Source of the DNA: a virus | Taxonomy: Duplodnaviria > Heunggongvirae > Uroviricota > Caudoviricetes | Virus record (IMG/VR): IMGVR_UViG_648276647_000016 | Span: 1 to 34,499 of that record | Length of the DNA: 34,499 nt | Direction: 5' to 3' (one strand) | Shown: positions 1 through 33,054 of the stretch, one piece after another | How positions within the stretch are numbered: the stretch's first letter is position 1 | How the letters are laid out: each line of letters opens with the position of its first letter | The notes under the pieces: model-generated | Database searches by the model: none | Told to the model about the DNA's origin: nothing | The model's input: the letters and a program-made list of their open reading frames with translations, nothing else | Position numbers and translations under genes: made by a program

Positions 1-300
1 TGCGCGCTTACTGACACTGGTGTAATCCGGGCAGCGCAACGGAACATTCATCAGTGTAAAAATGGAATCAATAAAACCCTGTGCAGCCCGCAGGGTCAGC
101 CTGAACACGCGTTTAATGACCAGAACGGTGGTGATGGCGAGATCAGAATAGCGCTGAGGTCTTCCCCGTGATGAAGGCGTTGCCGACTCATACCAGGCCT
201 GAATAGCTTCATCGTCCAGCCAGAAAGTTATGGAGCCACGGTTGATGAGGGCTTTGTTGTAGGTGGACCAGTTGGTGATTTTGAACTTTTGCTTTGCCAC
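1..300 (-). CDS. IS903-family transposase, N-terminal 100 codons (3' part outside window)
   Basis: Hand translation of the reverse complement from a GTG at 298-300; open to the window edge. Not in the ORF track because it is truncated. Confidence 0.8.
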   Translation of the reverse strand, partial: MAKQKFKITNWSTYNKALINRGSITFWLDDEAIQAWYESATPSSRGRPQRYSDLAITTVLVIKRVFRLTLRAAQGFIDSIFTLMNVPLRCPDYTSVSKRA

Positions 301-377
301 GGAATGGTCTGCGTTGTCGGGAAGATGCGTGATCTGATCCTTCAACTCAGCAAAAGTTCGATTTATTCAACAAAGCC
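1..377 (-). mobile_element. IS903-family (IS5 family) insertion sequence, partial; outer terminal inverted repeat at 359-377
   Basis: Minus strand of 359-377 reads GGCTTTGTTGAATAAATCG, which I recall as the IS903 terminal IR. Adjacent ORF translates to VAKQKFKITNWSTYNKALINRGSITFWLDDEAIQAWYESATPSSRGRPQRY, matching my memory of the IS903/IS102 transposase N-terminus. Element continues beyond the window start. Confidence 0.85.
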
Positions 378-816
378 CCTTCAAGTTTCTAATGTAGTTG
401 TTCAGCGCGTCATACCAGTCTGCGATATTCGAGGGCTTACGTAGCGCCAGCCTGAATAAACTACTTACCTGCTGTATGAGCATAGTCAGCTTATCAAACG
501 CATCCTCGTGCACCTCAGCAAAAAACTTACCCTGGTTTCTAAGATCTGTTTCCTGAGTAACCGGCAGTTCTCGCGATATGGAAATCTGATAACCATTAGC
601 CAGTGCTTTCGACAGAATTACATTGCCGCCGTTATACCCTCCCGCACCAGTGACTGTGTAATCAGTATCAAGAGCCAGCACAGTGATATTCTCGTCAGGG
701 TCAATCACCTGCACTACTAGATCAGATTTATTGAAAACCCTAAAGGTATAAGGGAATGATGTCGTAACGCCGTTACCGGTGTATTCGTTGTGGTCAACTT
801 CGGTTGAGACCGTCAT
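367..816 (-). pseudogene. Tail fibre / tailspike N-terminal virion-attachment domain, truncated by the IS903-family insertion
   Basis: 149-aa ORF starting MTVSTEVDHNEYTGNGVTTSFPYTF, resembling phage tail-fibre N-termini. Only codons 1-146 (378-816) are phage DNA; the last three codons and the TGA stop (367-369) lie inside the IS inverted repeat. Confidence 0.6.
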
Positions 817-920
817 GTTAAATCTCCAGATAGTCGCAGCACCCGTTGCGCCGCATATCCGGTCATTCTATTACCTGAAAAACCATATATGGATAGAAAA
901 CCCATAAATACGAACAGATA

Positions 921-935
921 TTACCTTTCAGGTGA
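921..935. promoter_or_regulatory. Operator-like palindrome TTACC-N5-GGTgA (one mismatch)
   Basis: TTACCTTTCAGGTGA; flanking sequence (cataaatacgaacagatattacc) resembles the -10/operator part of the PL-like promoter at 28395-28438. Confidence 0.4.
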
Positions 936-972
936 TTTGCAAAACGTACTGGATAGCAAACAAATTATTTGA

Positions 973-992
973 TACTGTATAAATATACAGTT
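973..992 (+). promoter_or_regulatory. LexA (SOS) box
   Basis: taCTGTATAAATATACAGtt: perfect CTGT-N8-ACAG palindrome with AT-rich centre, about 20 bp upstream of the ATG at 1012 and its GGAGAAG Shine-Dalgarno (999-1005). Confidence 0.8.
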
Positions 993-1011
993 ATTACATG
1001 GAGAAGATAAG

Positions 1012-1269
1012 ATGCAGCAGTATCACTATCCACTGGAAGACGGATTTACCGAAAGGATTCACACGCCGGGAGGCGTCAGGTCACTGGTGGAGGGATCGCA
1101 CTTGATGAAATTACTCCGGGATCTCGATAAGGATGGATTTAATGTCGATGGCCCACTTGCCGAACTGACTGCACTGATTAACTACGTCACCAGCTCGCAG
1201 ATGTCTATGCAGGATCTGCAAACACATCTCGACTATTGTGCCGAACAATTACTAAAACAAACCAGATAA
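1012..1269 (+). CDS. Small antirepressor-like protein (paralogue of the C-terminal domain of the Bro-N antirepressor), LexA-box controlled
   Basis: 85-aa ORF with good RBS. Aligns by eye to residues ~150-220 of the 1585-2280 product (IHTPGGVRSLVEGSHLMKLL..DGxxVxGxxAELT..QDLQTH vs IHSPSGVLGLTENSLLMNLL..DGHDVSGAAAELT..RDIQTH). Confidence 0.6.
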   Translation: MQQYHYPLEDGFTERIHTPGGVRSLVEGSHLMKLLRDLDKDGFNVDGPLAELTALINYVTSSQMSMQDLQTHLDYCAEQLLKQTR

Positions 1270-1272
1270 GGT

Positions 1273-1315
1273 TTGAAATTACCAAGTGGAGTGCTTATAT
1301 TTACCTTTGCGGTAA
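1273..1315 (+). promoter_or_regulatory. Sigma70-like promoter (TTGAAA-N17-TATATT) with operator palindrome TTACCTTTGCGGTAA (1301-1315) over the predicted start
   Basis: Read directly from sequence; operator matches the motif found in the immunity region. Confidence 0.5.
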
Positions 1316-1407
1316 ATTTACATCGCACTCCTCTTGTGCCATAGTAATCGGGCACTGGCAAAATCCAGTGCCGGGATTGGCGTCCCGGATTACTAAAAGG
1401 CGCATTC

Positions 1408-1427
1408 ACCGCGCAAGCGGTTTTTTT
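1408..1427 (+). terminator. Rho-independent terminator (ACCGC-GCAA-GCGGT + T7)
   Basis: 5-bp GC stem with GNRA loop followed by TTTTTTT, about 110 nt downstream of the promoter at 1273-1300. Confidence 0.55.
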
Positions 1428-1584
1428 ATGCGTATAGCACGGCCACATTCGTATTATGGTGGGCTGTGTGGGGGCACCGAAAGGTGCGCCGGGTCCTTTT
1501 AGCCGGTTACGCCAACCCTGCACAGTTCACCACCAACCGATTGGCGTCGGTAGTGGTGATTAACCAGACTAAAAGGTAACCACT

Positions 1585-2280
1585 ATGACAGCTACAAAAA
1601 GCACGTCCATTTTTTCTTTCGAATCCCAAGCCGATATACGAGTAATCGTCATTAATGGTGAGCCATGGTTTATCGCTTCAGATGTTTGTCGGGCTATAGG
1701 CATAGCAAACCATCGAGATGCTGTTCGAAAACTTGATGATGATGAGAAGGGCGTCGCTTCAACCGACACCCCTGGCGGTGAGCAAGAATCGATCATCATC
1801 TCCGAGTCAGGCCTCTACACACTGATCCTCCGCTGCCGCGATGCGGTGACACCAGGCACTATCCCCTACCGCTTTCGTAAATGGGTTACAGGTGAGGTTC
1901 TTCCTCAGATCCGCCGCACCGGAAGCTACATTAAAAACTCGCTCCCGCAGGAAGAACGCATAAAGATGGTTGCCGACCAGGTTGCCAACGCCACGGCGTC
2001 AGCAGTAATGCAGGCGATGAAGATAGAGAACAAAACCTACAGCGCCCCGCTGAAGCCAGGATACCGCAGTCTGATTCACTCGCCGTCTGGTGTTCTCGGC
2101 CTGACGGAGAACTCACTGCTGATGAATCTGCTGAACCAGTTACAGGACGACGGGCACGACGTATCGGGCGCGGCGGCGGAACTGACCACCATGTTCTGCT
2201 ACATTGTCGGTGTGAGCAAATGCCTGCGTGATATCCAGACGCACGCGGAGTACATCAACGACAAGGCAGGGTTCTTCTGA
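1585..2280 (+). CDS. Antirepressor, Bro-N domain family
   Basis: 231 aa; N-terminal region (EPWFIASDVCRAIGIAN ... ESGLYTLILRCR) matches my recollection of the Bro-N/antirepressor fold. RBS AAAAGG 8 bp upstream. Confidence 0.7.
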   Translation: MTATKSTSIFSFESQADIRVIVINGEPWFIASDVCRAIGIANHRDAVRKLDDDEKGVASTDTPGGEQESIIISESGLYTLILRCRDAVTPGTIPYRFRKWVTGEVLPQIRRTGSYIKNSLPQEERIKMVADQVANATASAVMQAMKIENKTYSAPLKPGYRSLIHSPSGVLGLTENSLLMNLLNQLQDDGHDVSGAAAELTTMFCYIVGVSKCLRDIQTHAEYINDKAGFF

Positions 2281-2295
2281 CGGGCGGCGGTGGCA

Positions 2296-2326
2296 TTCGT
2301 TAAAAACAAGGCCGCGAAAGCGGCCT
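2296..2326 (-). terminator. Rho-independent terminator for the minus-strand late operon (hairpin AGGCCGC-GAAA-GCGGCCT, then TGTTTTTAA on the minus strand)
   Basis: 7-bp GC stem at 2309-2326 followed by a U-rich tract on the minus strand, directly downstream of the lipoprotein gene; convergent with the antirepressor gene. Confidence 0.6.
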
Positions 2327-2341
2327 GTGACATGTCTCGAC

Positions 2342-2755
2342 TTATAAAGATGACTGATATTTTACAACTCTGTTCATGGCATCTTTTTTCACCGAGCTGA
2401 TATCAGTTCTTATTTTGGCTTCGTCATTACTGCTTATCATGCTATTAATTTTTTGCACTGACATGCCGTTTCTTTCAGCCATTGCACATACAGCAGCATC
2501 GTATGAAGAACTCGCTGCGATGGATATCACCTTGTTACACTCAAACACAGCACCTTCAGCAATATCAGATGCCGATGAGGCTGGCTTGGTATAAGTCTTG
2601 ACGTAGTGATCAATACAACTATCCTTCGCCGTCTTGGCAAGAGAAAAATCCATTTTAACTTTGTCGCAATATGCCTTATCAACACCGTCATAAACATCAT
2701 AGGATGTCGAGCAAGCGGATATCAAAAATACCGATAACAGCAATAATTCCTTCAT
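2342..2755 (-). CDS. Lipoprotein, AT-rich moron (candidate superinfection-exclusion protein)
   Basis: 137 aa; N-terminus MKELLLLSVFLISAC has a hydrophobic core and lipobox ending in Cys. Gene is visibly AT-richer than its neighbours. Confidence 0.6.
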   Translation of the reverse strand: MKELLLLSVFLISACSTSYDVYDGVDKAYCDKVKMDFSLAKTAKDSCIDHYVKTYTKPASSASDIAEGAVFECNKVISIAASSSYDAAVCAMAERNGMSVQKINSMISSNDEAKIRTDISSVKKDAMNRVVKYQSSL

Positions 2756-2764
2756 TGTTGTTCC

Positions 2765-5239
2765 TTATTGCGGAGTGACATCCTGAGGTCGCCACCAGTA
2801 TGTCTGGTTAAACTCTTTCTTTGAACGTTGCTCCATTTTACGCAAATAGCCTGGTGAAAAATACTCCTGCATCTGGTTAAAGATCATGTGATCGAGAGCC
2901 GCCTTCAAGTACCAGAGATTCGCACCAGGCATCAAACCTTTCCCCAGCTTAACCAGATCACCACCAGTCTGCTCATTCTTCCCTTCCACAGCATTTAACG
3001 GTATGCCCTGAGCAATCTTCACTACGTCATCAACCAGACCAACTACCGGGCCAAGCATCGACGCTAGTGCGCCGCTCCCGTACCTGGTGTGGTCAGAGAA
3101 AAGAAAATCACCGTACAACCCTGCCCCACCACCTTTTAAAAATGCATTTATCCAGAATTTAACCATGTTGTCACCGGTCATTTCTTTTGGATTTCTCCCA
3201 TTAATAAGATCAGTAATCTGCATGGAAAGAGCACCAAGCATGGTTGTGCTTGCTAAAAACGTTGCTATATATGCTGCACGCCCACCAGCAGACGGCATCC
3301 CCATAGCTCTATGCCAGTGACGCATAACTACCGAGATAGGGAACGATTTAAACAGGAAAACACTTCTCGTTAATTCACCTTTCCATGTTCCACGCTGAAT
3401 ACCAGAACCGGTTATCAGTTGCTCACGTGCTCCCGGTGTAATAACAGCCATATCAACTTCTTCAGTTACGGCACCGAGCAGTTTACGCATTGCCTCAAAT
3501 TTCACGCGTTCAGGCTCACCAAGATGTTTAACTGCTGAATCAGGGATACGCATAATGCTTTCCGGTGTCAGCATCGTATTATTACCGTTCCCCCAGTCCT
3601 CCTGTTGCGCCAGCTTCCATACGCTCCAGTCTGTGTCAGTAATCCCTTTGCTTTTCAGGATACGAAAATCAGAGTCATCGAGGCTACGAAGGTCTGGCGT
3701 CCGTGACACTACTTCTCCCAGGCTTCCCATCATGGTTACGCCATAGGCGCGCTTGTGCGCATCTGACCATGCTGTAAGCCCACTGGCACGCATTACGGCC
3801 GTTGCCGCCCAACGAGACACTGACGGCCCCATATTATCCATCGCCCAGCGGTTAACGCTGCCAAGTAGAGATTCCATCGCCAGACCAGCGCGGCGCGCCC
3901 GCACAAGTTCTGTACGGTTCGTTGGGTCCATAGCTTCAAGCTGGTTGCGGAATAACTGGTTCATTGGAAGGTTGGTAACCTTCGCCGACAGATACATGGT
4001 TCCAAGATCAGAGAACGATGACAGCAACGCGGATCCGAGTCTGCTGGCAACCAGCCAGTTGCGGATATTGTCAGACCATCGCGCGATGTGCGGATTCGCT
4101 ACAGGCTGTGTCTTTCCGGAAATAAAGTTGTACAGATTCTCTGTGTTGTTCGCCAGCCGCTCGACTTTACCGGTTTTACTCGGGTTAGCTGTTGCCGTTT
4201 CTGCCTTCACCTGATCAAGAAGAGAGCGGAAAACATGATCGGGGTTTGGGCCATATGTTTCCACCAGTGCAATATCTTTACTGATACCTTCCAGGTGACC
4301 GACCATGATTTCCCATAGAGAGCGATCGCCATAAAGTTGCTGATATTGCAGATAGGAATCTGCATCTTTGAAATGTATCTGTCGTGATGCATTACCACGG
4401 TTAGCACGTGCGCCGGAAATTCGCATTCCGGTATCAGTAAGCTTATTCAGCCCACCAGTAGCGATCGTGTTATAAGCCTCTCCAAGAAATGCAGACAACT
4501 CAGCATCGTTCATCAGTTGTCCATCGGCTCGGGTATAATATTTGCGATCCAGCTTACCTATAACATCGCTAACCCACTTATCCTTTGATACCGCCCCAAC
4601 CTTTTCCATAGAATGATGTTGAGGGATCCCCCAGTTTTCGAGATAGCCAATGTCCCCACCAGCATCATTAAACCGGCGGCGCAGTAGCTCTGTCACTTCT
4701 CTCCACGCCTTAGCACCTTTTCTTGCTTTAGCATTGCCAGTATTTTGCCCCCGCATTTCATATACCAGGTCACGTACGCCCGCTTCATCTTCAAACAGAC
4801 CAAAAAAGCGAGGATCAACTGCTTCGAATGCCCCCTGCAATTGACTCAATGCATAATCACGGGTGGCTTTTGTTCTGGATTCAACAGAGAGGAAATTCGA
4901 TTTACCGTCTGCATTAAAAGCAATAGTACGGTTAAGAGCACCGAGTTTCCCATCAGCCCCTTGATAGCTATTGATAAATTTATCCAATCTCTGACGTGCG
5001 GCTATAGTGAGGGCCACACGACGTTTATTTAATGCCGCTTCTCGCTGTAATTCTTCAGATGCCAATTGTGCTGCTCGATATAGCCGCTCTGATTCGGAAA
5101 GTTGTCGCCACGACATCGGGTCATCACGAGCAATGGAGCGCATATTTCGATAAATGCGGTCTTCAATGTTCTGTATTTCTCGCGCCGTTAACGTGCGCTG
5201 CGCCGCCTGCTGGACCGCTTGTATACATTCCTGTCTCAT
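2765..5239 (-). CDS. Internal virion / ejection protein, large (T7 gp16-like by position and size)
   Basis: 824-aa ORF, last large gene of the late operon after two other internal-protein genes; assignment is by synteny and size, not a recalled sequence match. Confidence 0.5.
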   Translation of the reverse strand: MRQECIQAVQQAAQRTLTAREIQNIEDRIYRNMRSIARDDPMSWRQLSESERLYRAAQLASEELQREAALNKRRVALTIAARQRLDKFINSYQGADGKLGALNRTIAFNADGKSNFLSVESRTKATRDYALSQLQGAFEAVDPRFFGLFEDEAGVRDLVYEMRGQNTGNAKARKGAKAWREVTELLRRRFNDAGGDIGYLENWGIPQHHSMEKVGAVSKDKWVSDVIGKLDRKYYTRADGQLMNDAELSAFLGEAYNTIATGGLNKLTDTGMRISGARANRGNASRQIHFKDADSYLQYQQLYGDRSLWEIMVGHLEGISKDIALVETYGPNPDHVFRSLLDQVKAETATANPSKTGKVERLANNTENLYNFISGKTQPVANPHIARWSDNIRNWLVASRLGSALLSSFSDLGTMYLSAKVTNLPMNQLFRNQLEAMDPTNRTELVRARRAGLAMESLLGSVNRWAMDNMGPSVSRWAATAVMRASGLTAWSDAHKRAYGVTMMGSLGEVVSRTPDLRSLDDSDFRILKSKGITDTDWSVWKLAQQEDWGNGNNTMLTPESIMRIPDSAVKHLGEPERVKFEAMRKLLGAVTEEVDMAVITPGAREQLITGSGIQRGTWKGELTRSVFLFKSFPISVVMRHWHRAMGMPSAGGRAAYIATFLASTTMLGALSMQITDLINGRNPKEMTGDNMVKFWINAFLKGGGAGLYGDFLFSDHTRYGSGALASMLGPVVGLVDDVVKIAQGIPLNAVEGKNEQTGGDLVKLGKGLMPGANLWYLKAALDHMIFNQMQEYFSPGYLRKMEQRSKKEFNQTYWWRPQDVTPQ

Positions 5240-5244
5240 TTAAT

Positions 5245-7047
5245 TTAACCTCTCAAGAAACACGCCACAGCGACATCAAACAGGCTGGAATCCTGTATTG
5301 CCTGCTCACTTTCCCTGTTCGCTTCATCCAGTACTTCACGCGCACTGCGCGATTGTGGATTACCATCATCATCCAGCACGGTGATTATCATGTCAGGTGA
5401 TTCAAGCAGCGAGTCTTCAGCTATGCGCAGATCAATATCTCCTGCCTGATCTGACATCATTTTTTGTTCTGCCTGTTGCAATATTTTATCAGGCTCAAAA
5501 GGAGCTACTTCGTCTGGCGTCCTGACCTCTGCTGTTTTATAGAATGAAACAGCCTGAGCATTAAGTTCACTTTCTGCCTGCTGTCTCCGAGCCAGTTCTG
5601 CTCGAGCTTCAAAAAACTGACCGCCAGGCTCGTGCGGTGCCAACGCGTTACGGGAAAATTCCAGGCGTTCTTGTGCCTGCCGGATTCGTTGATCAATATC
5701 GCGAAGTCTGGCCTGTTTATCTGATCGAGCACGAGACAAAGCTTTACCGCTACCGGTTGGCTCTTCTGCAAGAATTTGTGCACGCTGTTCAGTGAGATTT
5801 TCAATAATTCGTTGGCTATTAGCGATTTCAGACTGGTAAACCTGTCTATCTCCACGCGGCAAAAGCTGCGCGGCCTGTTCTTCAAGCAACCGATTTTCTA
5901 TAGCGCGCGCCGTTACTCCATCATCTACAGATGACAGAGCCTCATTAACTGCCTGAGACAGCAGACTCTTGCGCCCAGGAATTTCACTGAAAGATGCAGA
6001 CTCAACAATGCTCGCAACGTCTACAGGTCTCCCCTGGCTAACATCAGACATGGCTTTTCGCAGAGCCTGAATGTGCGAATTACGCGAAAGCACGTTGATC
6101 GGAACGCCGGGAGCAATATCAATTTCAGCATGATGAGCGGCATTCGCCGCCAGTGCAGCATCGATATCAACTGGTGAAAAATTTGGTGCGCTTGTAGGCT
6201 CGCCGCGAGAGTTAATAAATCTGCCGACACCACCAAACGCCACCCCAAGAACAGCATCAATAGCAATTGCCTGTCGATCCAACACATCATACTGGTTAGC
6301 CATTTCGCTATAGCCACCATCACGAAGCGTTTTTGCAGTAAGCACACGCTGTGCCATACCGAACGCAATATTTGTACCTGCGGCATAGGCAATATCTGGC
6401 GTTGCACGTACTGCTGTTGCTGCGGCGCGTCGCACTGAACTTTCACCCGTCCGCGCAAGCTGAGCCGCCACACCTTCCGCCAGCGCACCGCCAGCACGTA
6501 ACCCGAGGCTCATTGGGATCAGTGTTCCGGCACCAGCAGTAATACCCTGCACTAATCCCGCTTCCTGCGCCGTCCTGAAATCAACACCCTGTGCTGTCAG
6601 CCGTTCAAACTCAGAAAAACCCTGTAGAGAAGTTACTGCCGCAGCACCTCCGACCGGACCACCGAGCGTTGTACCGACAACAGCCTGCCCGCCCATATCG
6701 AACAACCCATAAAGGACCTGCCCGGCGCTTCCGGTTGTCGCGGCATCAGGCGTCAGCCGCTTAACCTGCTGCTCTGCTAGTTTTCTCTGCTCAGCAATGT
6801 ATGAAACTGAAGTGTCATTGAGCGAGGTGTTTTCGTTAACAAACTGAGCAATCGGGGATACGATTTTATCCATCCCTGCCCATAGCAACTGATCTGGCTT
6901 TGCCACCAGCCCGGAGTACAAACCAGACAATGCCGCGCCTACAGCATTGTCGAAAAAACCAACATCGCTGTTAAAGCCAGCTGGATTTGATGCTGCTTCG
7001 TCAAGCTGCTGATTCTGGTTTACTGGATTAAGGCCAAAGTAACTCAT
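5245..7047 (-). CDS. Internal virion / ejection protein (gp15-like by position)
   Basis: 600-aa ORF, Gly/Ala-rich N-terminal half and coiled-coil-like C-terminal half; 4-nt overlap with the upstream gene. Confidence 0.5.
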   Translation of the reverse strand: MSYFGLNPVNQNQQLDEAASNPAGFNSDVGFFDNAVGAALSGLYSGLVAKPDQLLWAGMDKIVSPIAQFVNENTSLNDTSVSYIAEQRKLAEQQVKRLTPDAATTGSAGQVLYGLFDMGGQAVVGTTLGGPVGGAAAVTSLQGFSEFERLTAQGVDFRTAQEAGLVQGITAGAGTLIPMSLGLRAGGALAEGVAAQLARTGESSVRRAAATAVRATPDIAYAAGTNIAFGMAQRVLTAKTLRDGGYSEMANQYDVLDRQAIAIDAVLGVAFGGVGRFINSRGEPTSAPNFSPVDIDAALAANAAHHAEIDIAPGVPINVLSRNSHIQALRKAMSDVSQGRPVDVASIVESASFSEIPGRKSLLSQAVNEALSSVDDGVTARAIENRLLEEQAAQLLPRGDRQVYQSEIANSQRIIENLTEQRAQILAEEPTGSGKALSRARSDKQARLRDIDQRIRQAQERLEFSRNALAPHEPGGQFFEARAELARRQQAESELNAQAVSFYKTAEVRTPDEVAPFEPDKILQQAEQKMMSDQAGDIDLRIAEDSLLESPDMIITVLDDDGNPQSRSAREVLDEANRESEQAIQDSSLFDVAVACFLRG

Positions 7048-9557
7048 TGCGGAATATCTCCGGAGAATCTCTGACGTTTCTGTGTCAGATTAAGAACAAC
7101 GGGAGAACCATCATCTTTCAGCAGATAACCAGTACCAAGTTTCACCAGGTACTGACTATCGCCGTAACTTTGCAAACCATACTGACCAGGCGGTGTTTTT
7201 ATCCCGGAGCCGACTACTTGTTCATTCCAAGCCTGATTAATCTGCTTATCGAATTGCTCTGCAGACATTCCCCACGGCAAAAGGACATTCCCCATTCCGT
7301 TATAGTCATGCACGCCACCTGTAGCTACGTTAACAGCCTGTTTCCAGACATCATTGTCAATTTCGCCTGATACCACGCCTTTTTTCGCCATCACACCAGC
7401 GTAATAATCCTTTGCGATCTCGTATGCCATTGATGCCCCCTGAGCGTCACCAGCAAATGCATCCTTCACCATGTCAGAAAACTCAAGGCGAAGATCAGCA
7501 TCTTTAGGCATCGGAATACCTTTCGCATCATCAGTACCTTTACGAGCCGCCGCGCCAGCAAGAATTGTCTGCGCAGCGGTTTCAGGAGACACGGAAACAT
7601 CCGGATTAAACCAGTTTTTTTCTGCCAAAATACCACCAGGCTTATCCATCAGTATCCCGGCAACGGCAGCAGATGGAGCGTTGGCACTGATCTGCTGTAG
7701 TGCTGACATATACACCTGCCCACCACCAGTGCTCTGCCTGATGGTATCGAGATATGCTGCCTGTTGGGAAACTGGAGCATCACGAAAGAAAACACCGATC
7801 TGATTGGCCTCGTCTTTGGAAAAGAACGTCAGTGGAGTGCCATATGACTTAGCAAGATCACTGACCTGAGCGGCACGCAAGGCAACGCTCTGTCCAAAGT
7901 TATCCTTATTGCTCATGTCGATAGGCTTTGCCTGTCCGGAGGCAAGAGAGAACTGCACAGGATCCGACTGCCGCTGCTTTATCACCTGATTTGCAGCCGA
8001 AACAACGTTGTCATAAAGAGCTGCGCGTGCCGCATACCCCTCCCCTGTCTCACCAGTATCCGGGCGTAATTGCTCAACATATGCTGTAATGCTGCTTGTC
8101 GGCATGTTGCGGAAAGAGCCTATATACTGTCCGGCGATCTGTGTATTTCTGAACTCGGTATATCGCAGGTTTCCTTCTCTGACGCCATAAGCTGCAATAA
8201 AATCATCCTCACCAGGTGGGTTAGGGAATTCAACGCCACGCATATACGCAGCCGTCGCATCGCGAACCTGGCTGTCAATCATCGTTTTATATTCAGCCTG
8301 CTGCTGCCGACGCAGTTGATCCGCCTGTCGCATAAAACTTGCCTGCGCCTCAGGAGATGCCGCATCGAATGCTGCATTACCGGTATAGCGTTTGGTGTTG
8401 GTTGGAATTGTTGATAAACCAAGTGCTGCACTGACACCAGCAGTTAACTGCTGATCACTGTATGGCTGGTTACCGTTCTCATGATGGATAATGGCTGCAC
8501 AAAGCGCCTTCAGGGTATCAGGATTAGATGCATCGAGAGGATCATCAGCAGAAACGCCAAGTTGTTCGCACACTGCTTTGATATACGACATAGTATCATT
8601 TTTATCAGTAGGCGGTGCCCAGCGATTAATTATCTCGCTGACGGTATCAATACCCTGCCTCTGATACGACATCAGGTTTCGCCCTAATGCACGAATCCCG
8701 TGTTCAGGTGTTTCGAATTTAGCAAATCGACCATCATCACCGGTCTGGCCTACCCACGGATTAGTTTTGCTGTATTCGAGATTTCCTGGGTTATTGTTGC
8801 GTATGCCACGGGCACGCTCGGAAGAGTCACTATCTGCTACAGCACGGCGAGCTCCAGCAGCAGTATCACTTAACTCGCCATTACTTTGGATGAATGCGGT
8901 CGCATTGTTTGCCGACCACTGGGACAATGCGGCATCAGCAACCTTCTCTTTAAACTCGATTTTCTTGGCCTGGATTTGCTCGTCGCTCCAGCCATGCGCA
9001 ATGCCGTAATCCTCAATTTGCTGGAAAGTTTGCTTATTAGCCAATACGTATGCGGCATTGTCGCCATACAATGCTGCGGCATTTTTACCATTATTCAGCA
9101 GCGTCGCCTGAAACTGACCTTCTTCGTAGGCATTAATTTGCCCTATCTCGTGCCGCCCGGCCTGCGTAGTGAACTGAATGCGCTGCTGCTGTGCCTGCTG
9201 CATGAAAGCATTACGGGCCTGTTCATCCGGCAGCGACATAGCCAGTTGCTCGATCTGGGCATCAAACTGCTGCGTATACTCCTGACCTTTTCCAATAGCA
9301 TTTTTCCCTTTCAGGTTAAGCAAACCTGTTTCAGGGTTATTCAGCAGATCGCTGCTTATCTGGCTTAAGCTAAGAGAAGCATCCTGAGCCATAGCAACAT
9401 TCGCACGCTGTTTTGCCTGCGCAATAATACCTGCATATTGCTCTGCAACATCGCCAAGTACATCACCGACATTTGGTGTCTGAAACGATGAGAATCCCTG
9501 CGTCGAAATCCCTCTGCTTTGAACCTGACGGCCCGATGTTGTTGGTACAACTGGCAT
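7044..9557 (-). CDS. Internal virion protein with a putative cell-wall-degrading domain
   Basis: 837-aa ORF; contains GIRNNNPGNLEYSKTNPWVGQ...FAKFETPEHGIRALGRNL, a motif I associate with virion-associated muralytic domains of podovirus internal proteins (from memory, unverified). Confidence 0.5.
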   Translation of the reverse strand: MPVVPTTSGRQVQSRGISTQGFSSFQTPNVGDVLGDVAEQYAGIIAQAKQRANVAMAQDASLSLSQISSDLLNNPETGLLNLKGKNAIGKGQEYTQQFDAQIEQLAMSLPDEQARNAFMQQAQQQRIQFTTQAGRHEIGQINAYEEGQFQATLLNNGKNAAALYGDNAAYVLANKQTFQQIEDYGIAHGWSDEQIQAKKIEFKEKVADAALSQWSANNATAFIQSNGELSDTAAGARRAVADSDSSERARGIRNNNPGNLEYSKTNPWVGQTGDDGRFAKFETPEHGIRALGRNLMSYQRQGIDTVSEIINRWAPPTDKNDTMSYIKAVCEQLGVSADDPLDASNPDTLKALCAAIIHHENGNQPYSDQQLTAGVSAALGLSTIPTNTKRYTGNAAFDAASPEAQASFMRQADQLRRQQQAEYKTMIDSQVRDATAAYMRGVEFPNPPGEDDFIAAYGVREGNLRYTEFRNTQIAGQYIGSFRNMPTSSITAYVEQLRPDTGETGEGYAARAALYDNVVSAANQVIKQRQSDPVQFSLASGQAKPIDMSNKDNFGQSVALRAAQVSDLAKSYGTPLTFFSKDEANQIGVFFRDAPVSQQAAYLDTIRQSTGGGQVYMSALQQISANAPSAAVAGILMDKPGGILAEKNWFNPDVSVSPETAAQTILAGAAARKGTDDAKGIPMPKDADLRLEFSDMVKDAFAGDAQGASMAYEIAKDYYAGVMAKKGVVSGEIDNDVWKQAVNVATGGVHDYNGMGNVLLPWGMSAEQFDKQINQAWNEQVVGSGIKTPPGQYGLQSYGDSQYLVKLGTGYLLKDDGSPVVLNLTQKRQRFSGDIPQ

Positions 9558-22869: not shown

Positions 22870-24369
22870 GTGACGCTCAATACTTCTCAGGTCAGTTACT
22901 ATATGACTCAGCGTAAGAAAGGTATAACTCAGCATATCTCGGCCATGAAGGCTGGTATCTCAGTCCGTTCTGGTCGTCGGATCGAAAAAGGAGAGTGGGC
23001 AAAAAACAGTGTTCGGCACTGGCGCACACGCAAAGATCCTCTGGAAGCTGTGTGGGACAGCATGCTTGTTCCTCTGTTGAAAGAGAGGCCGGCTCTGACA
23101 CCAACAACTCTGCTGGAGATGCTACAGGATAAATATCCCGGCCAGTATCCCAACAGCCTTCGAAGAACAATGCAACGGCGAGTTCGCGAATGGAAGCTAC
23201 AGTATGGTGCAGAGCAGGAGGTCATGTTCCGCCAGCGACATCAGCCCGGTCTGCGAGGTCTGTCGGACTTTACTGAACTGAAAGGTGTAGTTGTCACCAT
23301 CGCCGGTAAGTTGTTGGCGCATAAGTTGTATCACTTCCGTCTGGAATGGAGCCACTGGAGCTGGATGCGGGTTGTGCTGGGTGGTGAGAGCTTCTCTGCT
23401 CTGGCTGAAGGTCTGCAGGAAGCCCTCGGACAACTGGGCGGAGTGCCGGTAGAACATAAAACGGACAGCCTGAGGGCAGCATGGAAACAACAGGGCGAAG
23501 ATGGACGCCGCGAGCTGACTGAGCGTTATGCTGCTCTCTGTCAGCACTACGGAATGCAGGGCGTACACAATAATGCTGGTCGGGGCCACGAAAATGGCTC
23601 GGTTGAAAGTGCCCACGGACATCTGAAAAGGCGTATCTGTCAGGCGTTGATACTGCGGGGCAGTAACGACTTCAGCACCATAGAAGAATATCAGGCCTTC
23701 ATCACTCAGCAGGTTATGCGGCACAACCGTAACAATCAGGATCTGGTCAAGGAAGAACGTCTTCATCTGAAACCGCTGCCGCTTCGTCGCAGTGCTGACT
23801 ATGATGAGCTGACTGTGAGGGTTAGCCGCAGCAGTACCATCAATGTGAAGCACGTCGTCTACAGCGTACCTTCCCGGCTTGTAGGTCAACTGTTACGGGT
23901 CCGGTTATGGGACGATCGTCTGAGCTGTTATGTTGGCAGCAGCGAGGTCATGAGCTGCCCTCGTGTCAGACCAGAAAAAGGGAAGACGCGGGCCCGTCGT
24001 ATCGACTTCCGACATGTGATCGACAGTCTGGCAAAAAAGCCCGGTGCGTTCTGCCATGCAACGCTGAGAAATGACATCCTGCCAGACGATGAATGGCGGA
24101 GACTGTGGCGTCGCTTATGTAATCATCTGGAACCCGACATGGCAGGAAGGCTGATGGTACATGCCCTGAAACTGGCTGCAGGATACGACGATATCTCAGT
24201 CGTGGCAAAAGGTATGGAGCAGATGCTGAATACCCCGGGAAACGTGGATCTGCACCGGCTGATGCGCTTCCTGGGTATAAAGGAAAAGGCGTTGCCGGTA
24301 GTCAATGTGAAACAGCATAACCTGAGCAGTTATGAGCAACTACTGCGTGGCAAGGGAGGTTCGCAGTGA
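22870..24369 (+). CDS. istA: IS21-family transposase IstA
   Basis: 499 aa with N-terminal HTH-like region and central DDE-type domain; GTG start with AGGAAA Shine-Dalgarno (alternative ATG at 22903); stop overlaps the istB start. Confidence 0.7.
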   Translation: MTLNTSQVSYYMTQRKKGITQHISAMKAGISVRSGRRIEKGEWAKNSVRHWRTRKDPLEAVWDSMLVPLLKERPALTPTTLLEMLQDKYPGQYPNSLRRTMQRRVREWKLQYGAEQEVMFRQRHQPGLRGLSDFTELKGVVVTIAGKLLAHKLYHFRLEWSHWSWMRVVLGGESFSALAEGLQEALGQLGGVPVEHKTDSLRAAWKQQGEDGRRELTERYAALCQHYGMQGVHNNAGRGHENGSVESAHGHLKRRICQALILRGSNDFSTIEEYQAFITQQVMRHNRNNQDLVKEERLHLKPLPLRRSADYDELTVRVSRSSTINVKHVVYSVPSRLVGQLLRVRLWDDRLSCYVGSSEVMSCPRVRPEKGKTRARRIDFRHVIDSLAKKPGAFCHATLRNDILPDDEWRRLWRRLCNHLEPDMAGRLMVHALKLAAGYDDISVVAKGMEQMLNTPGNVDLHRLMRFLGIKEKALPVVNVKQHNLSSYEQLLRGKGGSQ

Positions 24370-24689
24370 GCAATATCCATCACCTTGAACGCAGCCTGCG
24401 TAAACTACGCCTGACACGAGTTGGAGCTGAATGGCACGCTCTGGAAAAACGAGCGCTGGCAGAAGGCTGGACACCATCGCGCTATCTTCTGACGCTATGC
24501 AATGAAGAACTCCTGTGGCGCGAGAGTGAAAAACTGCGTCGTTATAAAAAGGAGGCCCGGTTGCCAGTTGCCAAAACGCTAAGCGAATACGACTTCAGTC
24601 AGGTGCCGGAACTGAATGGAGCTCAGTTCCGGCAACTCTGTGAAACGACAGACTGGGTTGATGCTGGAGAAAACGTTCTGCTGTTCGGG
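24366..24689 (+). pseudogene. istB: IS21-family helper ATPase IstB, N-terminal fragment
   Basis: MSNIHHLERSLRKLRL...DWVDAGENVLLFG matches the IstB N-terminus up to the Walker A position, where the expected GPSGVGKTH is replaced by unrelated sequence. Confidence 0.65.
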
Positions 24690-24847
24690 GCCAGCGCATT
24701 AGCACGCACCAGTTGCACTTCCAGTTGCGTTGCCAAATCGCTGATCAGCTTTGCCACACTGCGCATATCAACGGCACCACATTCAGCTTTCAGTTCCGAA
24801 GCCATCTCATGCCCGGCGGCAACTAACCCTTTGATATTACTTTCCAT
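24690..24847 (-). pseudogene. N-terminal fragment (~52 codons) of a phage early-right gene, truncated at the IS21-family junction
   Basis: MESNIKGLVAAGHEMASELKAECGAVDMRSVAKLISDLATQLEVQLVRANA reads as protein-like; beyond ~24690 the frame is antisense to istB. Confidence 0.4.
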
Positions 24848-24908
24848 CTTTACCCTCGCTTATCCACATAACTTATTGATTACATTGATAACTAAAAAGA
24901 TCGTCGAT

Positions 24909-25253
24909 TCAGAACTCTTCGATATTCCAGCCACCATCTGCTTTCTTTGGTTTAACCGTTACCCCGATAATTCGGAACGGATACTGATCTGCGGCGACTT
25001 TGGTTTTCACCCTAGCGTCGTCGGTCCAGAAACCTTTCACTTCGTGCAGTTCCATCTCTCCTGTGGCGAGCATCACAGCGAAATCTGGCGTATAGAACGT
25101 GTTGTCAGCTAACCGCAGCTTGATACCCTCGAATCGATACCAGGCTATTTCCCCTGCGCGTTTACGCTGCTCAAGGTGCTGGCAATACGCAGATTCTGTT
25201 TTGTTCATCTGGCCTGTTTTGAGTCGACCAAGAGCCTGTATCTGTTTTCTCAT
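24909..25253 (-). CDS. DUF1064-like phage protein (putative PD-(D/E)XK-fold)
   Basis: 114 aa; pattern YRFEGIKLRLA...YTPDF...ELHEVKG recalled from DUF1064 proteins of lambdoid replication regions. Confidence 0.5.
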   Translation of the reverse strand: MRKQIQALGRLKTGQMNKTESAYCQHLEQRKRAGEIAWYRFEGIKLRLADNTFYTPDFAVMLATGEMELHEVKGFWTDDARVKTKVAADQYPFRIIGVTVKPKKADGGWNIEEF

Positions 25254-31014: not shown

Positions 31015-31314
31015 GTGAGAAAGTTAAGCCGACTTGAAAAATATCACATGAACAAGGTTTCAATGCGCCGTCCTTCAAAGGTTATCGCCGTTACTCCTGC
31101 GGCGATAGAGATCGAAAAACGCGCGATTGAAAGAGAGAAAAAAGGGCAATTCCGCATTGCCGCTCACCTTTGGCTTCAGTGTATGGATGTTGCTTCTGGT
31201 GATGTTGAACGTGCAAGGATCGCGGTTCGCAGGGACCAATGTATCACAAAAGGTAACGGCCTTCGCCGTGGCGACTATAGCGGTATAGGATGTTGCGGGG
31301 TGGTTTATGAATAA
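31015..31314 (+). CDS. PerC-like transcriptional regulator (tentative)
   Basis: 99 aa; GQFRIAAHLWLQCMD...ERARIAVRRDQC resembles the PerC/Pch G-W-R-AA-WL core as I remember it; start uncertain (GTG 31015 or internal ATG). Confidence 0.4.
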   Translation: MRKLSRLEKYHMNKVSMRRPSKVIAVTPAAIEIEKRAIEREKKGQFRIAAHLWLQCMDVASGDVERARIAVRRDQCITKGNGLRRGDYSGIGCCGVVYE

Positions 31315-32410
31315 ACAAAACAATAATATAAAAGGTAATATCATGAGCAAGGTAGGCGATTATTTCTTTGAATTTCCCGCATCACGAGGAACGCAGGGAA
31401 GCACTGTAATACTTATGATGACAGTACCAGCAAGAGCACTATCGAGAGTATTGGCAACCGACAATACGGGAAGTACCCTTGAACGTTCTCAACGTGAAAT
31501 TAATCCAACTAGGGTAAAAAAGTTTTATCAATATTTAGTCAACGCTTACGAGAAAAAGGAACCATTTATTGTTCCACCATTGGTCGGAAATTGTAACTCA
31601 GAAATAGAGTTCCATGAGATTGGAAATACTAATGTCGGTTTAGCTAGATTTCCTATGGATGCAGAAATAAAATTATTTGATGGACAGCATCGTGCTGCAG
31701 GATTAGCTGAGTTCTGCCGTAATTATGGTGAAACAATTATGATTCCTCTTATGCTTACGCATAACCTTCCTTTGAAGGCGCGTCAGCAGTTCTTTTCTGA
31801 CATTAATAATAATGTTTCAAAACCATCTGCAGCAATTAATATGGCGTATGACGGACGAAACGATGTTGCCCAAGAAATGGTGTCTTTCCTGTCGCAACAT
31901 GACACTTTTGCAGAAGTCACTGACTTCGAGCACAACGTTGTTCCGTCAAAGTCAAACATGTGGGTGAGTTTCAAAGCATTAAGTGATTCAACATCAAAAT
32001 TTTGTATTCATAATGGAAAAAAACTAGAAATTGGTAACATCGAGTCAGTATGGGAATCATGGTTATGTCTTACACAACTAGAAGCAATTCGCCATGGTAC
32101 AAAGCAATCAGAATACAAAAGAGAATATATCCAGTTTCATGCAGTGATGATTAACGCTTTTGGTTATGCTGTTCAGCAAATGATGGTTAATCACTCAATA
32201 AAAGAAATAATTTCAATGATTGAAACATTATGTGCAAATACTGACTTCGCAGAAAGAGAGAATTTTTTCCTAATGGATAATTGGGTTGGGATCTGCACGA
32301 AAGCAAGCCAGGAAAAACTATCAGTTATTGCCAATGTAGCAGCACAGAAAGCGGCAGCAAACAGGCTGATACAAGCCTTTACCAAAGGAAGTCTGGGAGC
32401 AGAGCAATGA
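31307..32410 (+). CDS. DGQHR-domain protein (DndB-like, ParB/Srx-fold)
   Basis: Contains the exact DGQHR signature (KLFDGQHRAAGLAEF); ~355-367 aa like DndB; gene is strongly AT-rich; alternative start at the ATG at 31343. Confidence 0.6.
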   Translation: MNKQNNNIKGNIMSKVGDYFFEFPASRGTQGSTVILMMTVPARALSRVLATDNTGSTLERSQREINPTRVKKFYQYLVNAYEKKEPFIVPPLVGNCNSEIEFHEIGNTNVGLARFPMDAEIKLFDGQHRAAGLAEFCRNYGETIMIPLMLTHNLPLKARQQFFSDINNNVSKPSAAINMAYDGRNDVAQEMVSFLSQHDTFAEVTDFEHNVVPSKSNMWVSFKALSDSTSKFCIHNGKKLEIGNIESVWESWLCLTQLEAIRHGTKQSEYKREYIQFHAVMINAFGYAVQQMMVNHSIKEIISMIETLCANTDFAERENFFLMDNWVGICTKASQEKLSVIANVAAQKAAANRLIQAFTKGSLGAEQ

Positions 32411-33054
32411 AAAAATACACGCTAATATATGCAGATCCACCCTGGGTATACCGGGACAAAGCCGCAGATGGTAATCGCGGCGCTGGTTTTAAATATCCGG
32501 TTATGAGTGTGCTGGATATCTGCCGCCTTCCTGTGTGGGATTTGTCCGATGAAAACTGTCTGTTGGCCATGTGGTGGGTGCCAACACAACCACTCGAAGC
32601 ACTAAAAGTTGTTGAAGCCTGGGGATTCCGTCTGATGACCATGAAGGGCTTCACGTGGATAAAATGTGGTAGTCGACAACCAGATAAACTAGTTATGGGT
32701 ATGGGACACATGACTCGCGCCAATAGTGAAGATTGCCTGTTTGCGGTAAAGGGAAAACTACCTCCGCGCATTAATGCAGGTATCGTTCAGTCATTTACCG
32801 CACCGCGGCTTGAGCATTCAAGAAAACCAGATGTCGTTCGTGAAAAACTTGTGCAATTGTTAGGCGATGTTTCTCGCATTGAACTGTTCGCCCGCCAGTC
32901 GTCTCATGGCTTCGATGTTTGGGGTAATCAGTGCGAAGACCCGGCAGTGCAACTACACCCTGGATACGCGTTGGATATTGGCGGATTAACAAATGCATTC
33001 AGCAATGCTCCGCTGTCACCAACAGACAACCAGGGGCGGGAGCGTGCAGCATGA
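32407..33054 (+). CDS. MT-A70-family DNA N6-adenine methyltransferase
   Basis: Starts MKKYTLIYADPPW (DPPW catalytic motif) with further conserved stretch HSRKP; start overlaps the DGQHR stop (ATGA). Track start 32281 is an upstream extension. Confidence 0.7.
   Translation: MKKYTLIYADPPWVYRDKAADGNRGAGFKYPVMSVLDICRLPVWDLSDENCLLAMWWVPTQPLEALKVVEAWGFRLMTMKGFTWIKCGSRQPDKLVMGMGHMTRANSEDCLFAVKGKLPPRINAGIVQSFTAPRLEHSRKPDVVREKLVQLLGDVSRIELFARQSSHGFDVWGNQCEDPAVQLHPGYALDIGGLTNAFSNAPLSPTDNQGRERAA

What the first reader, a model, noticed from the sequence alone, without database searches (positions are those of the whole stretch)
2342..2755. AT-rich lipoprotein moron at the distal end of the ejection-protein operon
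The 137-aa product has a signal peptide with lipobox (LISAC) and four further cysteines. Its gene is clearly AT-richer than the flanking structural genes and has its own terminator. A lipoprotein encoded beside receptor-binding or ejection genes is the arrangement seen for receptor-masking superinfection-exclusion proteins (T5 Llp, Cor-type), so it may block entry of related phages; it could equally be a host-fitness moron.
Basis: inference. Interest (0 to 1): 0.5.

Follow-up and report, generated by a model that had tools for sequence, protein, structure and literature searches.

The report
Orphan outer-membrane lipoprotein in prophage exclusion slot
A defective phiV10/epsilon15-like E. coli prophage carries, right after its DNA-ejection genes, a real, strongly conserved gene for a small disulfide-stapled helical lipoprotein of unknown family. 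The same family also occurs on small plasmids and in anti-phage defence islands, so it most likely protects the cell envelope against incoming phage, but this is untested.

Summary
ORF 2342-2755 (-) encodes a 137-aa protein with a rule-conforming lipoprotein signal (Cys15, Ser at +2) and four more cysteines. It has 39% GC against 49-53% in the flanks.

The gene is real: dN/dS is 0.05, and the lipobox and all four cysteines are invariant down to 26% identity.

It is not a classic moron. The exchanged DNA is the ORF alone (2343-2760). The Shine-Dalgarno sequence and the terminator belong to the conserved phage backbone, and no convincing own promoter exists.

The slot behind the last ejection-protein gene always holds small envelope proteins: 2-TM proteins in phiV10 and epsilon15, and unrelated lipoproteins elsewhere. 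It lies in the interval that holds sieA in P22.

The family (phrog_8691) is tiny and confined to Enterobacterales. It has no Pfam family and no structural neighbour. It is unrelated to T5 Llp, Cor or SieA beyond the signal peptide.

Homologues also sit on about 4-kb Col3M plasmids of Proteus and in Morganellaceae islands beside SIR2-HerA, Gabija, dGTPase and restriction-modification genes.

Best reading: a stand-alone lipoprotein on the inner face of the outer membrane that mediates exclusion, probably through a host envelope target. The function is inferred, not shown.

The parts
2342..2755 (-). CDS of the 137-aa prolipoprotein (mature form 123 aa, about 13.3 kDa, pI 6.8); stop codon included
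   Evidence: ORF listing. Full-length match to phrog_8691, E=1.6e-91. dN/dS 0.05 against the 95%-identical Citrobacter/Enterobacter allele. AF2 model with pLDDT 85.
2711..2755 (-). Codons 1-15: signal peptide MKELLLLSVFLISA plus the lipid-modified Cys15 (lipobox I-S-A-C). Codon 16 is Ser, so no Asp inner-membrane retention signal.
   Evidence: PS51257 rule met in all 8 family members. The signal peptide aligns with that of T5 Llp, which its GenBank record annotates as processed by lipoprotein signal peptidase and acylated on the N-terminal Cys.
2486..2668 (-). Region encoding the twin CX16C motif: Cys30/Cys47 on helix 1 and Cys73/Cys90 on helix 3
   Evidence: All four cysteines are invariant, with conserved 16-residue spacing. 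They lie on helices 24-55 and 74-96 of the model. Pairing as 30-90 and 47-73 (position sums both 120) is inference.
2761..2766 (-). Shine-Dalgarno AAGGAA, overlapping the TAA stop (2765-2767) of the upstream 824-aa gene and 5 nt before the ATG
   Evidence: Read from the sequence. It lies in backbone DNA shared with phiV10 and E. coli DSM 103246.
2343..2760 (.). The exchangeable cassette: the only DNA that differs from prophages carrying other slot alleles
   Evidence: blastn homology to phiV10 (L001) and DSM 103246 (L003) stops at 2339-2342 and resumes at 2761-2762.
2299..2326 (-). Intrinsic terminator of the late/ejection operon (AGGCCGC-TTTC-GCGGCCT, then TGTTTTTAAC); shared backbone
   Evidence: Scan and fold. 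A terminator is annotated at the same place in phiV10 and after gp18 in epsilon15.
2765..5239 (-). Upstream gene: 824-aa internal virion / ejection-type protein (phiV10 gp20, epsilon15 gp17 homologue), the last large gene of the operon
   Evidence: phrog_684 'virion structural protein'. 96% DNA identity to phiV10. The operon in relatives starts with a T7_gp14-like protein and an SLT-domain protein.
1585..2280 (+). Convergent Bro-N antirepressor gene that ends at the same terminator region. It lies between the slot and the tailspike gene, as ant does in P22.
   Evidence: Pfam Bro-N 2.3e-21 and PHROG Ant families. P22 map.

Best explanation
The gene encodes a Sec/Lsp-processed lipoprotein. [quoted passage not shown] There a short tether of about 8 residues holds a compact six-helix domain of about 115 residues. 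Two disulfides probably staple this domain (Cys30-Cys90 and Cys47-Cys73).

It is a self-sufficient accessory protein carried by mobile elements. I propose that it confers exclusion of incoming phage at the cell envelope. The favoured route is binding a conserved host envelope component at the periplasmic face of the outer membrane, as T5 Llp and Cor do with FhuA, so that infection is blocked at or before the DNA-delivery step.

In this prophage it is translated as the last cistron of the late ejection-protein operon. It would therefore at least be made late in infection, which could protect the infected cell from superinfection and progeny from abortive ejection into debris. Expression from the repressed prophage is not established.

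Shown: gene reality, the lipoprotein signal, composition, the helical model, the cassette structure and the distribution.
Inferred: localisation, disulfides, exclusion function and the target.
For: 1. Real, constrained gene: 32 synonymous against 8 non-synonymous differences, dN/dS 0.05. The lipobox, four Cys, D26 and S99 are invariant to 26% identity.
2. Envelope destination: the PS51257 rule is met, with +2 Ser or Thr in all members. The conserved even number of cysteines fits an oxidising compartment.
3. The slot is specialised for envelope proteins:
- phiV10 gp21, 46 aa, 2 TM.
- epsilon15 gp18, 64 aa, 2 TM.
- 55-58-aa 2-TM and 92-98-aa multi-TM proteins in Kluyvera, Klebsiella, C. braakii and E. 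coli.
- Unrelated lipoproteins in Pectobacterium (159 aa) and Pantoea (102 aa).
- A Sec-signal protein in C. werkmanii.
4. The interval (last ejection gene, slot, antirepressor module, tailspike gene) is the one that holds sieA in P22. SieA is a proven envelope exclusion protein acting on ejection proteins (PMC10883804).
5. It acts without phage genes. Homologues are among the few genes on 4-kb Col3M plasmids of Proteus.
6. Other homologues lie in Providencia/Morganella integrase-AlpA-DUF3987-YfjJ islands beside HerA (E=6e-223), GajB (5e-121), dGTPase (2e-141), PDC-S11, and type I and type III restriction-modification genes.
7. A host target rather than a cognate phage target is favoured. The lipoprotein is 55% identical between the E. 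coli and Cedecea prophages, whereas the adjacent ejection protein is only 23% identical. Carriers also have different tailspikes and O-antigen-modification genes.
8. The short tether (residues 16-23 unstructured, helix from residue 24) keeps the domain at the outer membrane.
Against: - No convincing own promoter, so expression in a lysogen, the classical requirement for prophage exclusion, is unproven.
- The primary receptor of this phage type is O-antigen, which a periplasm-facing lipoprotein cannot mask. A protein secondary receptor is hypothetical here.
- Guilt by association with defence islands is weak evidence. In Morganellaceae the gene is flanked by IS elements and pseudogene debris.
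- None of the sequenced phages in the INPHARED collection carries the gene, so it has never been present in a phage studied in the laboratory.
Confidence: 0.42

Rival explanations
1. Conduit-blocking exclusion (works like P22 SieA, TP-J34 Ltp or T4 Spackle). The periplasm-facing lipoprotein binds incoming ejection proteins of related podophages, or inhibits their muralytic domain. The trans-envelope channel then fails to assemble.
For: - The gene is glued to the ejection-protein operon in every prophage examined, even where the ejection proteins are only 23-27% identical.
- The genome interval is the same as that of P22 sieA, whose targets are gp16 and gp20.
- The operon of relatives encodes an SLT-domain protein.
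- The protein is helical and disulfide-stabilised, as I recall T4 Spackle to be (own knowledge, not tested here).
Against: - The lipoprotein is far better conserved than the adjacent ejection proteins (55% against 23%).
- It also lives on plasmids and in islands of Proteeae with no such phage nearby.
- The window's ejection gene is 96-97% identical to that of phiV10, which lacks the lipoprotein, so there is no allele coupling.
- The short tether keeps it at the outer membrane, away from the peptidoglycan and inner-membrane part of the conduit.
- No similarity to SieA, and no Ltp or Spackle hit in the fold searches.
Confidence: 0.17
2. A host-fitness or immunity cargo unrelated to phage. Examples would be an orphan periplasmic immunity protein or inhibitor against envelope-acting toxins (bacteriocins, T6SS effectors, lysozymes), or a Bor-like serum-resistance or adhesion factor.
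For: - It is a small, disulfide-bonded envelope protein carried on phages, small plasmids and genomic islands.
- It is AT-rich, like horizontally acquired cargo, in every host (GC 0.30-0.41 against 0.45-0.56 in the flanks).
- It co-resides with resistance or surface cargo (Qnr pentapeptide, GNVR/Wzz-like) on Col3M plasmids.
Against: - No cognate toxin gene is adjacent in any context examined.
- The repeated, precise placement behind the ejection genes in divergent phages is not explained.
- Neighbours in the islands are anti-phage systems.
- No similarity to known immunity or inhibitor families in Pfam or the PDB.
Confidence: 0.2
3. A late-phase phage function. As the last cistron of the late operon, the protein would modify the envelope for the phage's own cycle, for example lysis timing or outer-membrane disruption, release, or prevention of progeny inactivation by debris. 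It would not protect lysogens.
For: - There is no own promoter. The SD overlaps the upstream stop codon, and the intergenic distance is 2-9 nt in E. coli, Citrobacter and Cedecea prophages.
- All slot alleles, including epsilon15 gp18, which overlaps the gp17 stop, are similarly coupled.
Against: - It is dispensable and freely replaced by unrelated proteins in close relatives.
- Homologues function in phage-free contexts with their own upstream regions.
- It is not an o-spanin. The mature protein is 123 aa, helical and has a single Pro. It lies far from the lysis cassette, which in relatives has its own holin, endolysin and DUF2514 (Rz-like) set.
Confidence: 0.15

Closest known systems
T5 Llp (lipoprotein that inactivates FhuA) and Cor of N15/phi80/HK022-type phages
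   Same: - A phage-encoded small lipoprotein with a near-identical type of signal peptide (MKKLFLAMAVVLLSAC-ST in Llp against MKELLLLSVFLISAC-ST here).
- Predicted outer-membrane, periplasm-facing location.
- Encoded at the distal end of a virion-gene block (Cor).
- Proposed to act on a host envelope protein.
   Different: - Mature domains are unrelated: hhalign aligns only 17 columns with Llp and 27 columns with Cor, essentially the signal peptide and lipobox.
- The mature protein is twice as large (123 aa against about 60) and is an all-helical twin-CX16C domain.
- Llp is divergently transcribed from its own promoter next to the receptor-binding gene. This gene is co-directional behind an ejection-protein gene, with no own promoter.
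- The host phage is an O-antigen-specific podophage.
P22 SieA (superinfection exclusion A)
   Same: - It occupies the same genome interval: after the last ejection-protein gene and before the antirepressor module and tailspike gene.
- It is an envelope protein.
- It is present in only some members of the phage group and comes in unrelated sequence types (PMC10883804).
   Different: - SieA is a 3-TM inner-membrane protein with no signal peptide, transcribed convergently from PsieA.
- No sequence similarity.
- SieA's target, the ejection proteins gp16 and gp20, is demonstrated. Nothing is demonstrated here.
Slot alleles of Uetakevirus phages (phiV10 gp21, epsilon15 gp18)
   Same: Exactly the same position, the same translational coupling to the upstream gene and the same terminator. 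All are small envelope-targeted proteins of unknown function.
   Different: Those are 46-64-aa two-helix membrane proteins and are unrelated in sequence. The lipoprotein allele is absent from all sequenced phages in the INPHARED collection and is known only from prophages.
Plasmid entry-exclusion lipoproteins (TrbK, ColE1 MbeD/Exc, TraT) - own knowledge, not tested here
   Same: Small lipoproteins carried by mobile elements that block entry of incoming DNA of the same kind. The family here is a recurrent gene of small Col3M plasmids.
   Different: No sequence relationship was detected in Pfam or NCBIfam. The Proteus plasmids are typed as non-mobilizable. No functional data exist.

Membership tests
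Bacterial lipoproteins (signal peptidase II substrates, PROSITE PS51257) | Lipobox [LVI][ASTVI][GAS]C with Cys at position 15-35, preceded by an uncharged hydrophobic stretch, with K/R in the first 7 residues | tested here: met
   Window protein: LLLSVF-LI-S-A-C15, with K2. All 8 family members pass.
Bacterial lipoproteins (signal peptidase II substrates, PROSITE PS51257) | Actual diacylglyceryl modification and Lsp cleavage (globomycin-sensitive); outer-membrane sorting by Lol | not testable with these tools
   Only the sorting signal can be read: +2 is Ser or Thr, never Asp, which in E. coli predicts the outer membrane.
T5 Llp | Homology of the mature ~60-aa domain | tested here: not met
T5 Llp | Own promoter, divergent from and adjacent to the receptor-binding protein gene; binds and inactivates FhuA | tested here: not met
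   The arrangement differs. The gene is co-directional, behind an ejection-protein gene, with no consensus promoter. FhuA binding is not testable here.
Cor (N15/phi80/HK022) | Homology of the mature domain | tested here: not met
   hhalign against N15 Cor aligns 27 N-terminal columns only, at 22% identity, covering the signal peptide.
P22 SieA | Integral inner-membrane protein with three TM segments; sequence types A-C | tested here: not met
   hhalign probability 0.1%. The mature protein has GRAVY -0.28 and no hydrophobic helix after the signal peptide.
P22 SieA | Located between the last ejection-protein gene and the tailspike gene | tested here: met
   Window order: 824-aa gene, lipoprotein, BRO antirepressor, 85-aa ORF, tailspike N-terminus. 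P22 order: 16, sieA, mnt/arc/ant, 9. Orientation and promoter differ.
Moron (autonomous transcription unit inserted between conserved phage genes) | Deviant base composition and presence/absence polymorphism among close relatives | tested here: met
   GC 0.394 against 0.49-0.53 in the flanks. Present in 22 of 5,426 complete E. coli genomes, while the flanking junction occurs in 535. Replaced in phiV10 and DSM 103246.
Moron (autonomous transcription unit inserted between conserved phage genes) | Own promoter and own terminator within the inserted DNA | tested here: not met
   The inserted DNA is 2343-2760, that is the ORF plus 5 nt. The SD and terminator are backbone. The scan found no promoter-like site upstream of the gene on its strand, and the best site in the 400 nt upstream scores 8/12.
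o-spanin (Rz1-like outer-membrane lipoprotein) | Short (about 40-70 aa), Pro-rich, unstructured; encoded within, overlapping or next to the i-spanin gene in the lysis cassette | tested here: not met
   The mature protein is 123 aa, has six helices and a single Pro. The lysis cassette (holins, endolysin, DUF2514) lies beyond the tailspike gene in relatives.
phrog_8691 | Full-length profile match | tested here: met
   E=1.6e-91, residues 1-137 on profile positions 1-137 of 137. The family has no annotated function.

The most novel reading that the evidence does not exclude
The protein founds a previously unrecognised family of mobile-element 'entry-exclusion' lipoproteins with a new twin-CX16C helical fold. 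The family is shared by temperate podophages, small Col-type plasmids and defence islands of Enterobacterales. It would shut an outer-membrane gateway used for DNA delivery. The gene position behind the ejection genes of epsilon15-like phages would then be a general exclusion-gene slot, equivalent to the sieA slot of P22, whose other alleles (phiV10 gp21, epsilon15 gp18) are exclusion proteins too.
Probability: 0.3. Interest if true: 0.65.

Novelty: new variant of a known kind. Interest (0 to 1): 0.42.

Why it matters
Envelope-level exclusion proteins decide which phages can infect lysogens, yet they are invisible to current defence-system finders. This family gives no hit in PADLOC, Pfam or NCBIfam.

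If this family excludes phage, three things follow:
- It adds a structurally new class beside Llp, Cor and SieA.
- It identifies a predictable 'exclusion slot' in epsilon15/phiV10-like phages, which are used for O157 and Salmonella typing and biocontrol.
- It gives a possible function to a recurrent unexplained ORF of the small Col3M plasmids, some carrying a Qnr-type pentapeptide-repeat gene, that circulate in Proteus, Providencia and Morganella.

If it does not exclude phage, it remains an ordinary uncharacterised prophage cargo gene.

Tried and rejected
- Sequence family searches gave nothing usable. Pfam gave only sub-threshold Linker_histone and Trans_coact hits. NCBIfam gave only a sub-threshold CC_3452 hit. 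PADLOC gave none. The PDB sequence profile hit only designed helical repeats at E>=0.1.
- tblastn against 50,697 phage records found no match.
- The exhaustive HMM search of 1.84 billion representatives found only 7 proteins. A second profile search added only Morganella and plasmid copies.
- Rejected: o-spanin (size, structure, location).
- Rejected: virion component. A Sec/Lsp-exported protein cannot be packaged, and the gene is dispensable in relatives.
- Rejected: spurious ORF (dN/dS 0.05). The overlapping + strand ORFs at 2376-2594 and 2606-2737 have no support.
- The 102-aa secreted protein in the C. werkmanii slot shows only local similarity (41% over 32 aa, E=4e-4 pairwise). It is possibly a distant, non-lipidated relative, and I left it undecided.
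- Literature searches for phiV10 or epsilon15 exclusion and lipoprotein found nothing on this gene.
- I did not attempt linker-fusion AF2 'docking' to the ejection proteins. Without deep alignments the result would not be interpretable.

Full report
**Setting**

The window is a phiV10/epsilon15-like (Uetakevirus) prophage of E. coli. Positions 431-8000 are 96-97% identical to phiV10 and relatives, except at a few cassettes. On the - strand, from 13044 down to 2765, run the large internal-virion/ejection-type genes of 823, 154, 179, 837, 600 and 824 aa. In relatives the 179-aa protein is T7_gp14-like and the following giant protein carries an SLT domain. The 824-aa protein is phrog_684, 'virion structural protein'. 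The target ORF follows directly. Then come a terminator, a convergent Bro-N antirepressor gene (1585-2280), an 85-aa ORF, and the N-terminal 149 codons of the tailspike gene.

**Observation**

ORF 2342-2755 (-) encodes MKELLLLSVFLISAC|STSYD.... It passes the PS51257 lipoprotein rule, with Cys15 and Ser at +2. Four more cysteines lie at positions 30, 47, 73 and 90. Its GC content is 0.394, against 0.489 for the 824-aa gene, 0.532 for the BRO gene and 0.496 for the window. That places it in the lowest ~2% of 414-nt windows. A canonical hairpin plus T-run lies 16 nt after the stop codon.

**Is it a real gene?**

Yes.
- The exact protein occurs on at least 1000 public contigs, and it matches phrog_8691 end to end.
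- Against the 95%-identical allele of Citrobacter/Enterobacter prophages there are 32 synonymous and 8 non-synonymous differences, giving dN/dS 0.05.
- In an alignment reaching 26% identity, the invariant residues are the lipidated Cys, the four other Cys, D26 and S99.
- AlphaFold gives a confident model (pLDDT 85; above 90 for most of the mature part). Residues 1-17 are disordered, followed by six helices at 24-55, 62-72, 74-96, 100-106, 109-115 and 119-136.

The cysteines form a conserved twin CX16C motif on helices 1 and 3. Because 30+90 = 47+73, an antiparallel helix pair stapled by disulfides 30-90 and 47-73 is the natural reading. This is inference, since the coordinates could not be inspected.

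**Anatomy of the insertion**

Homology to phiV10 and to E. coli DSM 103246, which carry other genes here, stops at 2339-2342 and resumes at 2761-2762. The exchanged DNA is thus the ORF plus 5 nt.

The Shine-Dalgarno AAGGAA (2761-2766) overlaps the stop codon of the 824-aa gene. It is backbone sequence, as is the terminator, which is annotated at the same place in phiV10 and after gp18 in epsilon15.

The promoter scan found no site upstream of the gene on its strand. A relaxed scan of the 400 nt upstream found one 8/12 site. In Cedecea the intergenic distance is 2 nt.

The gene is therefore an ORF-precise allele in a fixed slot of the late operon. It is not an autonomous moron, and it is expected to be made at least late in infection. 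Whether a lysogen expresses it is unknown.

**The slot**

Every relative examined has a small envelope-targeted protein at this position:
- phiV10 gp21: 46 aa, 2 TM.
- epsilon15 gp18: 64 aa, 2 TM.
- C. braakii: 55 aa, 2 TM.
- Kluyvera, Klebsiella and E. coli DSM 103246: 57-58 aa 2-TM plus 92-98 aa multi-TM (phrog_3075).
- C. werkmanii: a 102-aa Sec-signal protein.
- Pectobacterium (159 aa) and Pantoea (102 aa, phrog_13472/10370 'lipoprotein'): unrelated lipoproteins.

The interval between the last ejection gene and the antirepressor/tailspike module is the one that holds sieA in P22. [quoted passage not shown] It is also present in only some relatives and comes in unrelated sequence types (PMC10883804). 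In P22, however, sieA is convergent and has its own promoter.

**Distribution of the family**

An exhaustive profile search of 1.84 billion representatives found seven proteins. A second search added only near-copies. All members are from Enterobacterales. There are three contexts.

(i) Prophages of this type in E. coli (22 of 5,426 complete genomes), Enterobacter, Citrobacter, Cedecea and metagenomes. The gene is always right after the last ejection gene. This holds although the ejection protein is only 23-27% identical while the lipoprotein is 55%, 44% or 26% identical. It also holds although tailspikes and O-antigen-modification genes differ. The gene is 10-20 GC points below its flanks in every host.

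(ii) Small Col3M plasmids of Proteus and other Proteeae, about 4 kb. Their other genes are ParA, a Qnr-type pentapeptide protein or a GNVR/Wzz-like protein.

(iii) Integrase-AlpA-DUF3987-YfjJ islands of Providencia and Morganella. There the gene is flanked by IS elements and lies within about 10 kb of HerA with SIR2, GajB with an OLD nuclease, dGTPase, PDC-S11, and type I and type III restriction-modification genes.

The protein thus works without any phage partner. It travels with elements that profit from excluding competitors.

**Comparison with known systems**

The family profile aligns with T5 Llp and N15 Cor only over the signal peptide and lipobox (17 and 27 columns). It does not align with P22 SieA at all. 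No Pfam, NCBIfam or PADLOC family matches. Fold searches return only generic helical bundles. It is therefore not a member of any characterised exclusion family. The resemblance to Llp and Cor is one of kind: a small periplasm-facing outer-membrane lipoprotein of a phage. It is not an o-spanin, on grounds of size, helicity and distance from the lysis cassette.

**Mechanism**

I commit to exclusion at the envelope by an outer-membrane-anchored, disulfide-stabilised helical domain held on a short tether.

A conserved host envelope component is the more likely target, for four reasons. The protein is much better conserved than the neighbouring ejection proteins. It is independent of tailspike type. 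It occurs in phage-free contexts. The tether is short.

The rivals are direct blocking of the ejection conduit (SieA-, Ltp- or Spackle-like), an unrelated immunity or fitness cargo, and a late-phase role in the phage's own cycle. None can be excluded computationally. The experiments that separate them are listed under next steps.

**Verdict**

It is not a self-contained moron, and it is not of the Llp or Cor type. It is an uncharacterised, structurally orphan family in a recognisable 'envelope-protein slot', of moderate interest.

Noticed in passing
window 1-420: The tailspike gene is cut off after about 146-149 codons (ORF 367-816, -). It runs into the end of an IS5-family, IS903-like element, whose transposase reading frame continues off the left edge. 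The prophage therefore cannot make a tailspike and is defective.
   Followed up: partly
window 22870-25112: An IS21-family element (istA-like 499 aa with a Mu-transposase C-terminal domain, and istB-like 248 aa) is inserted near the terminase and replication region of the prophage. This is a second sign of decay.
   Followed up: partly
window 31261-33054: The only other strongly AT-rich stretch of the window (GC down to 0.35) encodes a DndB-like protein (31307-32410; Pfam 3.5e-46, PADLOC DndB 2e-37). It is followed by a type II methyltransferase-like protein (32281-33054; PADLOC 4e-76), next to the integrase (33252-34499). This is a candidate defence or epigenetic cargo pair.
   Followed up: partly
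window 1012-1269 and 1585-2280: The 85-aa ORF (epsilon15 gp19 homologue) and the C-terminal third of the Bro-N antirepressor match the same families (phrog_450, phrog_15539). The small protein therefore looks like a free-standing copy of the antirepressor's C-terminal domain.
   Followed up: no
L002 5224-6023; L003 2141-3023 (region corresponding to window 2281-2300): The convergent side of the same terminator is a second cargo hotspot. Other E. coli prophages carry here a YafO-family toxin, a 53-aa secreted Gly/Cys-rich 'transmembrane anchored protein' and other small ORFs. The window has none of them.
   Followed up: no
L018 7366-7941 / L019 1133-1708: In a distant relative of this phage type, a 191-aa Cys-rich secreted protein (signal MKTSVFLLSLLFSLKCFA) sits between the last ejection gene and the lipoprotein homologue. 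The slot can therefore hold two exported proteins.
   Followed up: no
L037-L041, L032 (Proteeae small plasmids): The lipoprotein homologue is a recurrent backbone ORF of 4-6-kb Col3M plasmids. Their variable cargo includes a Qnr-type pentapeptide-repeat protein or a GNVR (Wzz-like) protein. Metagenome assemblies show the plasmids as tandem concatemers.
   Followed up: partly
L022 4410-4718 (Citrobacter werkmanii prophage slot): A 102-aa protein with a cleavable Sec signal but no lipobox shares a 32-residue Cys...Cys segment with the lipoprotein (41% identity, E=4e-4). It is possibly a soluble periplasmic relative with only one of the two cysteine pairs.
   Followed up: partly
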